DNA of 24,000 nt, taken from the NCBI GenBank assembly GCA_965204405.1, contig CBDBEN010000003.1:487293-511292 (forward strand), in the 5' to 3' direction. Positions 9,001 through 21,000 of the stretch are shown piece after piece (positions within the stretch are counted from its first letter, which is position 1; each line of letters begins with the position of its first letter). The DNA comes from Geminicoccaceae bacterium (GTDB lineage: Bacteria > Pseudomonadota > Alphaproteobacteria > Geminicoccales > Geminicoccaceae). Position numbers: made by a program.

Positions 9001-12000
9001 TTCTCATCACCCGCTCCAAACATTTCAAAGAGTTAGCAATCTATCTAGAAAAGGGCGTGTTTCCGGGGCAGCAGATGGGGCAGCAATTGAGCTGTTCTTA
9101 GCGAGCTTCCCACGTTCGTGTATCCCTGTTACAGCCCGCAATGGGATTTCGGACGGTGCGCCATGAGACTGCCAACCGTCATCGCCCTGGCCTTCGCCAG
9201 CCTCGCTACCAGCTTCCTATTCGGCCTCATCGCAGTGGGGCGCTACTGCATCTGATCAAGCTCGATCCCAAGAAATTTCGAATGCATCCCGATCGCTGCC
9301 GACACCCCGGATGTCCAATCTCTCGCTGCAATGCCGGCAGGGACGAGGCTCTGGAAGTTTGCCGCCGACGCCCCTCATGCCGGACTTTCCGCGATGATGA
9401 AGCTCAGTTCTTCATCTCCACAGCTCCGCGACGTCATGATCGATCTCCCCAAGCTTCTCAAATAAAGCAATCATCTCCGCATCATGAACCGTCAGCCCGG
9501 CATACGGCAGCCGATCTTCAAGGCGCTGATAGGTGCTTTGACGCATGCCAAGCGGCCTGCCATCTCCAACGATCTGTTCGAACTTCTTTTTTTCAGAATT
9601 CGCCTCTCCGGATTCTTCGCAGCGCCACGCCCGGATGTAAGCAGGCACTCATAGGTATAGCCGGCGCAAGTCATGCCTGACCGAAGACCCTGGTGCTCGG
9701 GATGCTGATAGACGGCCGCAACGCGCTTGCCGCATTCACAGACCCAGAAATGTCGATTGGTGCAGCCGCCTCCTGATATGATTTCCAGGCGTGTCGTCGG
9801 GCAAATCAGAGGATCGCCGTCTTGGTGTCCCGGCTCGCGCCACATCTCATCGGCAAGCGCGCCTAGCCCGGCGTTGAGCATGCGCACGCCTGATGCTTTG
9901 ACCGTCGATCCATCAGGAGCACGAAACAAAGGCGAGACTCAATTCCACGCTGTACGGTGCCGCTTATAGGGTATGCGTGCATCTCGGAAGTCTGGCCGCT
10001 GGGGTTTAGAGTTGCTCCAGCCTCTCGGCCTAGGGCCGCCATGCATGCGTTTTTTACTCCACACTGCTTCACTGCCTGGCCTCCCTAACGACACATGAGC
10101 ACTGCACCTAGTTTGCCATTGCAATGCTGCATTCCGATGCCGTCCCTGTTCTACCAACAATCTGCCAAACTGGAGGCCAAAGTCTCCTCAAGGGCAAGCG
10201 TTACGAGCTTCCGCTTTTCCGCTGTTACCGGGAACAAGCCTATTTTCAGCAGTGTGCCGATTGTGATGAAAAAGTCGAAGCGAATACCTGACGAAGAATT
10301 TTTTTAGAGTGGCATTCTTCAGAACCGGCATCTCGGAAATCAAATTCCAAGAATATGCTGTTATTGGAACTCGTTTCTAAACCCTGAGAGCATATTTGGG
10401 CGGCTCCGACTTTTTCATCAAAATCGGCCAGGTCCGGTAGGAAGGACAGCTCGCTGGTGTGGCTGGTTCTAGTTTCGAGAGCGGCCATTCGAGTGGGATC
10501 GGCAATCACACTCTTGCCTGCGAAAAGTAAGATCGCCGGCGCGAGGGGCTGCTTCGTGATCCGCATTTCTCCCGCTACGGAAAGCAAGCCCGCACTCACA
10601 CTTCGTGCCATTTCCGGCCGCGAGGTTACGTGCTGATATGAAAGTTATGGATCTGCATAGAGATGTCATGTGAAGAGGATTGCAAAGTTCCCACGAGGCC
10701 ATACATCAAGATGATGCGTGTTGAGATGAGAGGTAACAGTAGTGGCGACCTTAATGGCGTTCTTGTTGGTCCCATTGACTCTTCTGTGCCTAGCTGCTGC
10801 GCTCTCGGCATTACGTATTACCAAACTCAATATCTGGGACACGATGTTAAGTGCAGCAAGAGGCCTGTACGCATGGAGCCTTATTGAATTGACGGTGGCT
10901 TTGACATTGGTCGTGGCTATCGGATTTATACGATAATTCATGTCCTTGACAATTTCTTGCTGTCTCAAATGGGTCAAGCCCGGTAGGAAGGACAGTTCGC
11001 TGGCGTGGCTGGCTCTGGTTGCGAGAGCGGCCATTCGAGCGGGATCGGCAATCATACTCTTGCCTGCGAAAAGTAAGATCGCCGGTACGAAGCGCTGCTT
11101 CGTGATCCGCATCTCTGCCGCTACGGAAAGCAAGCCCGCGCTTACACTTCGTGCCGATTTTGTTGATTTAGTCGTTTGTTTTTGAGCAGGCGTCGCTCGA
11201 CGTGAGGCGAAGTCATGGGCTTGGCGCCGGGCTTCCACCCAGTTTTTTTACGTCTTCGCATCCATAATCGCTCAAATCTCCTTTGTTGTTATGCCAAAGC
11301 TGCGGTTGGTTCGAGTTTCGGTCTGAGCTTGGCGAGTTTTCGGAGGTTCTGAGCGGTGGCGGCGAGGAGAAATTCATCGCTGGCACCGCACGGTCCGCGT
11401 AGCCGAAGCCGGCCGAGCTTGAGAATGCGTTTCAAATGGGCGAACAGCATCTCGACCTTCTTGCGATCCTTTCTTGAGGCTTCGCCGGCATCAGTCTCGG
11501 CGATCGCTCGCGCCATGTCTTTTGCACGTTCATGAACGGAGCGAGGGATTTTGCGAGCGGGCGCTTTCGGGCAGCATTCAGCTTTCAACGGGCAGGCCGA
11601 ACAATCCGCATTGCTCGCACGGTACAGCATGGTGGCACCGTCGTTCACCAGCGTTCCTGTGGTGGTCAGCACCTTGTTGTCAGGACAGATGTAAACGTCG
11701 TCCTCCTGATCATAGAAAAAGTCGCTGCGCGAGAAGGTTCCATCCTTGCGCTCGGACTTGTCGATGATCGCGACATGCGGCTCGATCCCTCGCTCTTCCA
11801 CCAACCAGCCAACCATCTCCGCAGCACCGTAAGCGCTGTCGCCGGCAAGACGTTCTGGGTAGAGATCGAAGCGATCGTTCACCCGTTCGATCATGGTGCG
11901 GGCTGCGCCGACCTCGGCCTGGCGGATCGTCCGTGTCGCTTCGACATCGACGATGATGGCGTTGTCGGTGTCGATTAGATAGTTGGTGGCGTAAGCGAAG

Positions 12001-18000: not shown

Positions 18001-21000
18001 GGGCAGCCATCTCCGTTTCGAGGAAGGCCGCCATGTTGGCTTCATTGCCCGTGATACTTTCCCGGCCAATCGCGCGCTGCAGGAAATCGGTGGCTGCCGC
18101 CTGGTCGAGCAGAGGTCGGAGCTTTGTGATTAGTTCGTTGGTCGCCGTCATTCCGCCGCCTCCGAATTCTGTGCAGCGCGTGAAGAGGGAAGCGGAATCG
18201 ACCCGACCGGAGCAGCTGCGCCGAAAAGGCCATTATATAAGCGACTCAGCCCGAGCGCTGCTGCTCCTACCAGCGCTGCGCGCGGGCCAAGAAAACTCCT
18301 CTCGATCCGAACCGGTGCCATGCTGCAAAGCGGCAGCAGCTCGCGAACCCTGGAGACCAGCTCCGCACGCGCACCGATCGATCCGCCAAGCACGACGAGC
18401 TGAGGGTCGATCACTGCCTGTATCGCGAGCACGGCTCGACAAAGAAGCTTAGCTGTTTCGTCGAGGACTTGGCCTGCGGCCTCGTCACCGTTGGTAGCGA
18501 GATCGAAAATCTCCGGCACAGTCCGATCAAGCCCGGCAAGGGCCACGTAGCGATTCATGATGCCGTGAGTCGCGACCTCGCGCTCAAAGGCGCCGACATG
18601 ACGGGAGTTTGGATCGAAAGGATCAGCGCCGAATGGCAGATAGCCGATCTCGCCGGCAGCACCGGATGTGCCGCGCATCAACTCACCCCCCAGCATCAAT
18701 CCGGCTCCAATCCCGGTGCCGAGCGCAAAGAACGCCAGATTGTCGACACCCTGGCCATGACCCTGCCAATGCTCGCCAAAAACTGCGAGATTGACGTCGT
18801 TCTCTACCACCGTCTCGACACCGAGACGATCGCTGAGACGACTCTTGACGTTCATTTGTTCAAGCCCGCCGACATTGGGCGCCATCAGCACCTGACCGGC
18901 ATCATCGTCCGGCACACCCGGCACGCCGAGGACGGCAAGCCGAATATGTTTTTTGGGAATACGGCGTTTCTTGGCCACCACTTGGCTCAGGGCAACGATC
19001 TGCTCGATCAGATCCTCTCCACCCCTGGCTTCGGTCGGTGCGCTCTCCTCGGCGAGAATTCGGCAGGACAGATCGGCAATCGCCACACGAACCTTGGTGC
19101 CGCCGAGATCGATCGCGATGATATGGGCCGCCGATGGCACAATCTCATAGGTCACCGCCGTCCGGCCGACATGACCACCAGTCCGCCCCGTTACCTTAAC
19201 GAAGCCATCCGCCTCCAGCACACGGACAATTTCCGAGATCGTCTGCTTGGACAGCCTCGTCCGCTTGGCGATAGCCGCCCGTGATATCGGTCCGTGATGG
19301 ATAATTGCCGTCATCACCGAACGTAGCGAAAAATGACGTGAGATCCGAACCGAAGCACTCATAGTCGCCTTGCCTTTAATTCGTTCACTATACGAACTAT
19401 CTTTCGGCCTGATTAAGCTGTCAACCGAGAATCTGCAGACCACAACTAATCCAGCGGTCACACGAACTCGAAAGACCCTAGTGGCCTATTTGGATCAAGC
19501 CCGGTAGGAAGGACAGTTCGCTGGCGTGGCTGGTTCTGGTTGCGAGAGCGGCCATTCGAGCGGGATCGGCAATCATACTCTTGCCTGCGAAAAGTAAGAT
19601 CGCCGGCACGAGGGGCTGCTTCGCGATCCGCATTTCTGCCGCTAGCCGAGCTTACTCGTCGCTCACATTCCGTGCCAAGAACAGACGCTGGGGGCCTCGT
19701 GATCCAACGATCGACTTGCTGCTGACATCGATGAGTCCTTCAGTTAGTTTTTGACCATGAAGATCGAGGCCCTGGACCATGTTCAGCTTGCGATGCCGGA
19801 AGGGCGGGAGGATGAAGCTCGTACTTTCTATCGCGATCTGCTTGGCATTCCCGAAATCGCTAAGCCACCAAACCTAGTTGGTCGCGGCGGCGCTTGGTTT
19901 GTACGCGGCGGTTTAAAGATTCACCTTGGTGTCGACAAGAACTTCTCGCCAGCACGGAAAGCGCATCCGGCCTTCATCGTCTCGGGGTTGCAAGAACTGA
20001 TAGTCAGGCTAACTAACGCTGGATTCGAGCCGGCCAAAGATGAACCTTTGGAGGGCTATGATCGCGTCTACGTACACGATCCATTTGGGAATAGAATTGA
20101 GCTAATGGAGCCCGTCGGGAAGCTTTTGGGTTGAGCCTCCAAAGATCTCCATGGTGCCATCAGATTCGGACACTCACGGAACTGGACGTGTCGCCTTCAT
20201 CGAAGCTCGGCGGTCCTGCTCCTCGAACCACTTGGCGAGCGCAGGGTGGTTAGAAGCCCAATCGTCGTGAAATCCAGCGTACTCCACAAGCCCTAGAGCA
20301 CTGGCAAGTGTGATCGTGCAGAAATTCCAGGCCTGCTTGGGCGCTCGTTCGCGCTGAAAGGTCGTCTCGAAGTGATTGATGCAGCGTTCTGCGCGTTGTC
20401 GCTCGACGTCGAGGATAAACGCCGATCTCTCGCTGTCGTCACGGCGGTTCTCACGCGCCCAAGCGACGATCCCATCGAGAAACCCAACCACCATGCTCTC
20501 GAACGCCAGCTCCTGCCATCTTTCGCTTTCGTTGTAGGCAAGGAACGTCGATCGACCGGCAATATGATCGAAGTAAGCGCATATGTTTCGCGCTTCACCG
20601 AGAACGAGATCGTCACAGACAAGGGTCGGCACACGACAGACCGGACTATGTGCGAGGAGCGGATTATCCGGTGTCCGATTTACGACTGCGACATGTTCGA
20701 TCTCGTCCGCGATCCCACATTCGATGGCGGCAACGCGCACCACTCGGGCGTAGGGCGAGTTCTTTGAATAGTAGAGCTTCATGGTCTGATTATAGCCAGT
20801 CCTGCCGCTCCTGTCGCATCGGTTCGCGAGCTGCAGCCTTGTTTCCGGTCCGGGTCATCGATGGAAACAAGCGCCCTATCTTGTAACGCAGAGAATGCGC
20901 AGCAAAGCGGCCTCGCCAGCAAGCGATCTCCTCTTAGTGCCGGCTTTCGGGTAGGTTTCTTGCCAGTAGCCTCGTTCCCGCAGCGTGCCACTTTTGGACG

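What the first reader, a model, noticed from the sequence alone, without database searches (positions are those of the whole stretch)
10426..19689. Three same-orientation copies of a ~185-bp non-coding repeat family with a swapped 15-nt module
Seen in sequence: copies lie at 10426-10610 (A), 10972-11155 plus 12742-12753 (B) and 19492-19689 (C). They align without gaps. B versus C has about 7 differences in the first ~150 nt; A versus B has 15 differences in about 178 nt.

The longest reading frame through them (minus strand, ..SAGLLSVAAEMRITKQ..PAILLFAGKS.IADP.RMAAL..) does not behave as coding. Ten of the 15 A/B differences change the amino acid, and copy C lacks the ATG.

Near the 3' end, a 15-nt block differs completely between A/B (CGGAAAGCAAGCCCG) and C (GCCGAGCTTACTCGT, which contains a CGAG-CTTA-CTCG mini-hairpin). 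Both flanks of that block stay conserved, giving a mosaic structure.

Inference: this is a rhizobial intergenic mosaic-type repeat, a MITE-like relic, or a family of small RNA or leader elements. I cannot place it in a named family from memory.
Basis: partly seen in the sequence, partly recalled or inferred. Interest (0 to 1): 0.6.

Follow-up and report, generated by a model that had tools for sequence, protein, structure and literature searches.

The report
Mosaic MITE-like intergenic repeat family
The three 186-base repeats are real, non-coding members of a large genus-specific family of small repeats that look like miniature transposable elements, sit where accessory gene blocks join, and attract other insertion sequences: an ordinary kind of bacterial repeat, though this family appears undescribed.

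Summary
Observation confirmed. Copies A, B and C are 84-90% identical over 186 nt, with no gaps. B is split by an IS1182-family insertion sequence (IS). The 15-nt block really is swapped in C.

They are not a local oddity. They are a rare 186-nt subtype of a superfamily with at least 74 loci in this genome. The window holds two more members, D and E, also on the + strand.

Canonical members measure exactly 137 nt from GGGTCA to GTGCCA. They carry about 14-nt imperfect terminal inverted repeats (CTAGTGGCCGCT.T). CTAG lies at the same offset outside both ends about 200 times more often than chance predicts.

They are intergenic and non-coding. They are no more folded than shuffled sequence and have no Rfam match. 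The family was found in all 8 other genomes of the genus and in none of 98 genomes from 28 sister genera.

Breaks in gene order relative to related genomes fall at element ends. Three IS families insert at their termini.

Best reading: a non-autonomous, MITE-like element with mosaic subtypes. C's swapped block is the family's hypervariable segment, exchanged with another copy.

No autonomous partner and no clean empty site were found. An integron-like recombination-site role is therefore not excluded.

The parts
10118..10255 (+). Degenerate extra family member 'Z' (low confidence). Its 3' module ends in ..CAGTGTGCC directly before the 173-bp miniature element.
   Evidence: Read. The IS/MITE end at G000:C3:497551 is preceded by a family-type 3' module (GCTTTTCC..GGGAACAAGCC..GTGTGCC).
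10256..10428 (.). 173-bp miniature derivative of the IS1182-family IS, with 26-nt inverted ends. It is inserted between Z and copy A. It is not part of the repeat family itself.
   Evidence: Inverted repeat I2. Ends resemble the IS ends. Copies occur in G001, G003 and G008. All 13 ends of this IS/MITE type sit behind TGCC, GGCA or GGCC.
10425..10621 (+). Copy A (186-nt subtype). The 5' hexamer is altered to CGGCCA, GTGCCA lies at 10605-10610, and an 11-nt outer arm follows. Variable block at 10578-10592.
10960..11155 (+). Copy B, left part. GGGTCA at 10971-10976, variable block at 11124-11138, cut after GTGCC.
11156..12741 (-). IS1182-family insertion sequence interrupting B, including the duplicated TGCC at 12738-12741. 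The transposase ORF is 11289-12695 on the minus strand.
   Evidence: Pfam DUF772 + DDE_Tnp_1_6 + DDE_Tnp_1. Inverted repeat I1. Many copies in congeners. The same IS sits behind GTGCC of another family member at C3:312703.
12742..12753 (+). Copy B, right part: the final A of GTGCCA plus the 11-nt outer arm AGAGAAGACAC.
   Evidence: G at +7 and C at +9 match the rest of the family.
19481..19688 (+). Copy C (186-nt subtype). The left arm is preceded by CTAG (19478-19481). GGATCA at 19492-19497, GTGCCA at 19672-19677. The swapped variable block at 19645-19659 is identical to that of G000:C5:1112990.
20841..21001 (+). Element D, a canonical class member (139 nt hexamer to hexamer, 20852-20990), between the GST and hydrolase genes.
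   Evidence: R2 score 86 bits, E 7e-26.
21964..22121 (+). Element E, a canonical class member (136 nt, 21975-22110). Its 3' end forms GTGCCA-GTTTT-GGGCAC.
   Evidence: R2 score 94 bits, E 3e-28.

Best explanation
A, B and C are a 186-bp subtype of a genus-specific superfamily of non-autonomous, MITE-like intergenic elements.

Anatomy. The canonical unit is about 159 bp. An 11-nt outer arm precedes 137 nt running from GGGTCA to GTGCCA, and another 11-nt outer arm follows. The ends form imperfect ~14-nt terminal inverted repeats, and TA (often within CTAG) lies just outside them.

Inferred mechanism. A DDE transposase of the IS630/Tc1-mariner type, supplied in trans, binds the inverted ends and the conserved subterminal blocks. 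It cuts the element out and pastes it into TA/CTAG sites in intergenic DNA.

Consequences. Copies then diverge. They also exchange segments by recombination between copies. That produced mosaic subtypes of 137, 148-150, about 165 and 186 nt, and C's swapped 15-nt block. As dispersed homologous sequence, the copies become the seams at which accessory gene blocks are rearranged. Their conserved TGCC, GTGCCA and CTAG motifs are preferred targets of three other IS families.

Shown: anatomy, copy number, distribution, non-coding and unstructured nature, mosaicism, and coincidence with gene-order breaks and IS insertions.
Inferred: mobility, and the type of transposase.
For: Copy number and distribution:
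- At least 74 loci by transitive BLAST, 44 with both ends recognisable.
- Lengths are discrete: 23 copies of exactly 137 nt and 31 of 135-139, plus 148-150 and 186.
- Present in 8/8 congeners and 0/98 genomes of 28 sister genera.

Ends:
- Read from outside to inside, the end consensus is CTAGTGGCCGCTtT+GGGTCA on the left and cTAGTGGCCGCTcT+TGGCAC on the right (reverse complement). Positions 10-23 of the two are the same.
- CTAG lies exactly 14 nt outside the hexamer in 5/40 left and 6/40 right flanks, against about 0.03 expected.
- Pairs of ends peak sharply at one spacing: 31 pairs at 125-149 nt.
- G at +7 (93%) and C at +9 (88%) after GTGCCA.

Not coding: no frame is open across copies, and there is no 3-nt periodicity. 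Pfam finds nothing for ORFs through A and B.

Not structured RNA: mean folding z-score is -0.2 on the + strand and 0.0 on the - strand. No column pair has a mean pairing probability above 0.3. No Rfam hit.

Possible transposase source: IS630-family transposases are abundant, with 39 DDE_3 hits. The 12-copy IS630 is itself flanked by CTAG. The IS630 family duplicates TA, preferentially within CTAG (PMC2170065).

Mosaicism: the 3' ~65-nt module is shared by bodies of types I, II and III. C's module is identical to the C5:1112990 copy.

Gene-order breaks relative to G008 and G003 fall within a few nt of element ends.
Against: - No autonomous element with matching ends was found. The common IS630 has different inverted repeats, and three other IS630 loci have no match.
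- No clean empty site was found in a relative. Every comparison gave a rearrangement junction, not flanks joined across a single TA.
- The inverted repeats are visible mainly as a family consensus. An element's own two ends match no better than ends of different elements (8.2 vs 8.0 of 24).
- Median pairwise identity is only 61% while length stays at exactly 137 nt. This suggests a constraint beyond selfish mobility.
- Neighbouring copies within 30 kb are co-oriented 28:8 (p=0.001). Random insertion of an element with inverted ends does not predict this.
- The 186-nt body of A, B and C is not recognised by the 137-nt class model. Its membership rests on the shared ends, flanks and 3' module.
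Confidence: 0.5

Rival explanations
1. The elements are site-specific recombination sites, analogous in role to attC, that bound exchangeable gene cassettes. A tyrosine recombinase would act on a double-stranded core (GTGCCA, N5, GGCCAC/GGACAC at the 3' end, and GTGGCC, N5, GGGTCA at the 5' end). The 130-nt body would serve as an accessory arm with fixed spacing of binding sites.
For: - Elements form co-oriented arrays separating accessory genes. The window has 5 elements on the + strand. G000:C4:675-694 kb has six, all on the - strand. G008 contig C42 has six elements between small + strand genes (GFA, MarR, glyoxalase, GNAT), a gene set typical of cassette arrays.
- The glyoxalase gene and the six-gene operon occur in G008 behind different elements and in other contexts. 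Homology starts just after GTGCCA plus the spacer.
- The operon has no such elements around it in G003.
- Fixed length, conserved blocks and lack of folding fit a protein-bound DNA arm.
- An IS91 unit carrying an integron-integrase-like recombinase sits exactly after GTGCCA in two elements, forming GTGCC-AA/AG-GGCAC. Its TIGR02249 score is 190 bits against a cut-off of 265.
Against: - No recombinase is consistently linked to the arrays.
- The element to the right of the operon differs between G000 and G008, so it does not travel with the cassette as an attC would.
- Genes between elements point either way, and elements also occur singly.
- The same end features are equally well read as transposon inverted repeats with TA flanks.
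Confidence: 0.22
2. The copies are genes for a family of small RNAs or cis-acting leaders, transcribed from one strand.
For: - In 10 of the first 14 copies a same-strand ORF starts 50-250 nt downstream.
- The + strand alignment fold of the four type-III copies is better than the - strand fold (-50.6 vs -38.8 kcal/mol), with a few compensatory pairs.
Against: - No Rfam family matches, even at E<=5.
- Folding z-scores are about 0 on both strands for 44 copies, and there is no shared pairing.
- No promoter- or terminator-like site lies inside A-E.
- Over 44 copies, flanking genes lie in either orientation: 23:13 upstream and 22:16 downstream.
- Downstream genes are functionally unrelated.
Confidence: 0.07
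3. The copies are decayed fragments of a duplicated protein-coding gene, or plain segmental duplications with no family behind them.
For: A minus-strand frame is open through B, C, the chromosomal copy L004 and the G003 copy.
Against: - That frame has a stop in A.
- By eye, its Arg-rich product is only about half identical between C and the G003 copy, at 76% DNA identity. This is what unconstrained sequence would give.
- Pfam finds nothing.
- Copies lie at unrelated loci on three replicons and in other species.
Confidence: 0.03

Closest known systems
Bacterial MITEs of the IS630/Tc1-mariner type
   Same: Length of 100-200 bp. No coding capacity. Tens of copies per genome. Terminal inverted repeats. 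TA (here often CTAG) immediately outside the ends. Intergenic location. Restricted to one genus. Discrete length subtypes.
   Different: No autonomous IS with the same ends was found. The inverted repeats are imperfect and seen mainly in the consensus. Copies are old (median 61% identity) yet keep exactly 137 nt. Neighbours are co-oriented.
ERIC/IRU and BIME/REP-type intergenic mosaic repeats; RIME of Rhizobium (comparison from my own knowledge of these families, not tested here)
   Same: Conserved-length intergenic repeats built from modules that are mixed between copies. Genus- or family-specific. Frequent targets of insertion sequences.
   Different: Those families are imperfect palindromes predicted to fold. 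These elements fold no better than shuffled sequence. RIME sequences could not be compared with the tools. The taxon here is probably not rhizobial.
Integron attC sites and cassette arrays
   Same: Co-oriented repeats between small accessory genes. The same gene is found behind different repeats in different genomes. An IntI-like recombinase is encoded nearby in some cases.
   Different: No single-strand hairpin. No R''/R' (RYYYAAC/GTTRRRY) boxes. No integron integrase above the curated cut-off. Genes lie in both orientations. The repeats do not travel with the upstream cassette.

Membership tests
MITE (miniature inverted-repeat transposable element) | Short (under ~300 bp), many copies, no coding capacity | tested here: met
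   137-186 nt. At least 74 loci in the genome. No open or periodic frame.
MITE (miniature inverted-repeat transposable element) | Terminal inverted repeats | tested here: met
   A 14-nt consensus, CTAGTGGCCGCT.T, is identical at both ends. G and C positions are 80-90% conserved. It is imperfect in single copies.
MITE (miniature inverted-repeat transposable element) | Target-site duplication flanking each copy | tested here: inconclusive
   CTAG (which contains TA) lies at the same offset outside both ends in 5-6 of 40 copies, against 0.03 expected. Many related tetramers occur as well. A 2-bp duplication cannot be proven without empty sites.
MITE (miniature inverted-repeat transposable element) | Autonomous IS with the same ends | tested here: not met
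   The 12-copy IS630 has ends AGCACTTCCGCGACAG. There is no match in three other IS630 loci. The other IS630-family hits were not inspected.
MITE (miniature inverted-repeat transposable element) | Presence/absence polymorphism with a clean empty site | tested here: inconclusive
   Five loci were compared with congeners. All gave rearrangement junctions at the element end, and none gave a joined empty site.
Integron attC site | Imperfect palindrome folding as a single-strand hairpin, with R''/L''-L'/R' boxes | tested here: not met
   Folding z-score about 0 on both strands. The ends are GGGTCA and GTGCCA, not RYYYAAC and GTTRRRY.
Integron attC site | Associated integron integrase (IntI) | tested here: not met
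   The best candidate scores 190 bits against the TIGR02249 cut-off of 265, and it belongs to an IS91 unit. There are 29 tyrosine-recombinase hits, none consistently at arrays.
Known RNA family (Rfam), including alpha-proteobacterial sRNAs | Match to a curated covariance model | tested here: not met
   No hit at gathering score or at E<=5 in the window and 7 related loci.
RIME (Rhizobium-specific intergenic mosaic element) | Sequence similarity to RIME1/RIME2 and large palindromes | not testable with these tools
   No RIME sequence was available. Palindromic folding is absent. Named contigs carrying the family are Geminicoccaceae/Geminicoccales MAGs.

The most novel reading that the evidence does not exclude
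The family is the recombination-site component of an integron-like cassette system in an alphaproteobacterial genus. It would use double-stranded core sites (GTGCCA-N5-GGCCAC) and a fixed-length accessory arm instead of folded attC hairpins. It would be served by XerC/IntI-like tyrosine recombinases such as the one carried on the IS91 units that insert exactly at this core.
Probability: 0.12. Interest if true: 0.8.

Novelty: new member of a known kind. Interest (0 to 1): 0.38.

Why it matters
The family marks the seams of the accessory genome in this multi-replicon genus. Gene blocks such as the six-gene transport/catabolic operon and the glyoxalase gene are found behind different copies and in different places in sister species. 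Three unrelated IS families home to the elements' conserved termini. Knowing the family helps in three ways:
- It explains fragmented assemblies, because contigs of related MAGs end inside copies.
- It helps delimit mobile gene modules.
- It offers a tractable case for asking why a repeat keeps an exact length at about 60% identity without folding or coding.

It is not a new kind of system unless the recombination-site reading proves right.

Tried and rejected
- Coding test. Six-frame stop counts and codon periodicity over 23 copies gave no frame. Pfam on ORFs through A and B gave nothing.
- RNA tests. I ran Rfam at two thresholds, RNAalifold on both strands, column covariation, MFE z-scores, averaged pairing probabilities and a promoter/terminator scan. 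None supported a structured RNA.
- Sigma-54 promoter on the minus strand (TGGCAC). Rejected by eye, because the -12 element is not conserved.
- tRNA-derived att site. The 3' end of tRNA-Gly does not resemble the core.
- Plasmid database search found no match.
- Iterative nhmmer collapsed to 14-15 copies. Transitive BLAST was needed to reach the wider family.
- The public genome pattern scan gave mostly chance hits, apart from two Geminicoccales MAGs.
- Replichore polarity of orientation was not consistent.
- Search for an autonomous partner failed: and the candidate loci.
- Searches for empty sites found none.
- Earlier scan notes by sequence or words held nothing on this family.
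Full report
**1. The observation**

The repeat finder reports one three-copy direct family at 10421-10609, 10967-11155 and 19488-19676. The copies align without gaps.

Measured from the 5' hexamer to GTGCCA (186 nt), A/B share 166 positions, A/C 157 and B/C 163. 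B/C differ at only 7 of the first 150 positions. In positions 151-170, A and B agree at 19/20, whereas C agrees with either at only 7-8/20. After that block the copies agree again. The swapped block is therefore real.

B is cut after GTGCC by an IS whose 468-aa product carries DUF772 and DDE_Tnp_1_6 domains (IS1182 group of IS5). TGCC is duplicated, and B resumes at 12742.

**2. More copies**

The window is G000:C3:487293-511292 in a 6.86-Mb, five-replicon genome. A fourth full copy lies on the chromosome (C5:1627781-1627957), and a 70-nt fragment lies at C5:3519968. One 76%-identical copy occurs in a congener, G003.

The last ~65 nt consist of a TTTCTGCCGCTA flank, a variable ~15-nt slot, and a CGCTCACA..CGTGCCA flank. 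This module recurs at 14 loci, attached to three unrelated bodies: types I, II and III, where III is the A/B/C type. C's version of the module is identical to that of the type-II copy at C5:1112990. C is therefore a recombinant between subtypes. The '15-nt module' is simply the family's most variable slot (entropy profile).

**3. The superfamily**

A second repeat turned up between the GST and hydrolase genes of the window. That led to transitive BLAST, which collected 74 loci. Of these, 44 have both ends recognisable: 5' GGGTCA and 3' GTGCCA.

Lengths are discrete. Twenty-three copies are exactly 137 nt and 31 are 135-139 nt. Other classes are 148-150 nt and 186 nt. Median pairwise identity in the 137-nt class is only 61%.

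The window holds two canonical members, D (20852-20990) and E (21975-22110), both on the + strand like A-C. A degenerate one probably lies before the 173-bp miniature element at 10256.

The 137-nt class model does not score A-C. Their membership rests on three things: the shared hexamers, the outer arms (G at +7 and C at +9 after GTGCCA), and the 3' module linking them through types I and II, which the model does detect.

**4. What they are not**

*Not coding.* No frame is open across copies and variability has no 3-nt period. The open minus-strand frame of type III has a stop in A and is poorly conserved at the protein level in G003. Pfam is silent.

*Not a recognisable structured RNA.*
- No Rfam match at gathering score or at E<=5.
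- Mean folding z-scores of -0.2 and 0.0 for the two strands over 44 copies.
- No column pair with a mean pairing probability above 0.3.
- No promoter- or terminator-like site inside A-E.

**5. Ends**

Aligning the 24 nt outside each hexamer gives the same consensus on both sides, read from outside to inside: CTAGTGGCCGCT.T. GGGTCA follows it on the left, and TGGCAC follows it on the reverse complement of the right. CTAG stands exactly 14 nt outside the hexamer in 5/40 left and 6/40 right flanks, where about 0.03 is expected. A weight matrix of the ends finds pairs at one sharply preferred spacing.

This is the anatomy of a ~159-bp MITE with ~14-nt imperfect inverted repeats and a TA/CTAG target. 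That target is the hallmark of IS630/Tc1-mariner transposition (PMC2170065, read). The genome has 39 IS630-family DDE_3 hits. The 12-copy IS630 is itself flanked by CTAG, but its ends are different. No autonomous element with matching ends was found.

**6. Distribution**

It hits none of 98 genomes in 28 other genera of the same family/order. A pattern scan of public genomes found bona fide copies only in Geminicoccaceae/Geminicoccales MAG contigs. By inference, the organism is probably of that group rather than a rhizobium.

**7. Context**

Copies are always intergenic. Flanking genes point either way: 23:13 upstream and 22:16 downstream. Neighbouring copies within 30 kb are co-oriented 28:8, p=0.001.

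Comparisons with relatives:
- The six-gene operon (12748-19433) is 88% identical in G008. There it is again bracketed by family members, but of other subtypes and in another genomic context. Homology starts just after GTGCCA plus the spacer.
- In G003 the operon has no such flanks.
- The glyoxalase gene lies in G008 within a 5.7-kb contig that is an array of six short elements between small accessory genes.
- At three further loci, homology to G008 stops within a few nt of an element end.

No comparison produced a clean empty site.

**8. Insertion hot spot**

- All 13 ends of the IS1182-type IS and its 173-bp derivative sit behind TGCC, GGCA or GGCC. At least three are in the GTGCC of family members (B, C3:312703, Z).
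- A 2.67-kb IS91 unit, carrying a Y2 transposase and an integron-integrase-like recombinase, lies directly after GTGCCA in two copies.
- An IS630 sits in the CTAG beyond one of them.

**9. Verdict**

The best-supported reading is a genus-specific, non-autonomous MITE-like family with mosaic subtypes (confidence 0.5). Three observations keep a recombination-site (cassette-junction) role alive at about 0.2: the exact length at low identity, the co-orientation of neighbours, and the junction behaviour. sRNA and pseudogene readings are unlikely.

This is a new member of a known kind, of moderate interest.

Noticed in passing
window 20852-20990 and 21975-22110: Two canonical 137-nt-class elements (D, E) on the same strand as A-C. 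The stretch from 10.1 to 22.1 kb is therefore an array of at least five co-oriented family members, separating a small-ORF segment, a six-gene operon, glyoxalase+GST and a hydrolase.
   Followed up: yes
window 11156-12741 and 10256-10428; G000:C3:312703: The IS1182-family IS and its 173-bp miniature derivative have a strict target. All 13 ends in the genome are preceded by TGCC, GGCA or GGCC, and several lie in the GTGCC terminus of this repeat family.
   Followed up: partly
L089 (G000:C5:2057400-2061500); also C5:3007.7 kb and C5:2962-2966 kb: Three near-identical 2.67-kb IS91-family units. Each encodes a Y2 transposase plus an upstream tyrosine recombinase whose best match is the integron-integrase model (190 bits, below the cut-off of 265). 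Two of the units are inserted exactly after GTGCCA of a repeat.
   Followed up: partly
L055 (G008:C42:1-5679): The whole contig is an array of six ~95-nt relatives of the repeat between small same-strand genes (GFA, MarR, membrane protein, YdhR-like, hydrolase, glyoxalase+GNAT). The contig ends inside a copy.
   Followed up: partly
L056 (G008:C99), 74 N between the operon and ..CTGGTGCCAGG: A withheld (N) stretch lies exactly where the element to the right of the operon should be. That element is therefore about 88 nt long in G008, against 186 nt (copy C) in the window.
   Followed up: no
window 23953-23985 (minus strand): TGGCAC and TGACCC lie only 27 nt apart. This is either a possible mini or deleted family member in reverse orientation, or chance.
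   Followed up: no
G000:C2:48355-51177: Three adjacent tyrosine-recombinase genes (329, 463 and 446 aa), resembling a recombinase-in-trio element. They lie between oppositely oriented family members at C2:46992 and C2:59502.
   Followed up: no
L005 429-1490 and L012 (G000:C5:1110.6 kb): Paralogous pentapeptide-repeat proteins (337-353 aa) lie next to family members. I guessed a C-terminal TIR-like part by eye, without a Pfam search. One has a 195-aa tyrosine recombinase beside it. This is a defence-island-like neighbourhood.
   Followed up: no
L124-L126 (for example G000:C4:782 kb): A 12-copy IS630-family IS of about 1.06 kb with two overlapping ORFs, always flanked by CTAG.
   Followed up: partly
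L005 2911-2996: Sub-threshold Rfam match to mmgR/suhB sRNA (31.7 bits, gathering score 41).
   Followed up: no
whole genome: The organism is probably not a rhizobium. Its GTDB family/order holds only 107 species, mostly MAG-like assemblies. The only named public contigs carrying this repeat family are Geminicoccaceae/Geminicoccales MAGs.
   Followed up: partly
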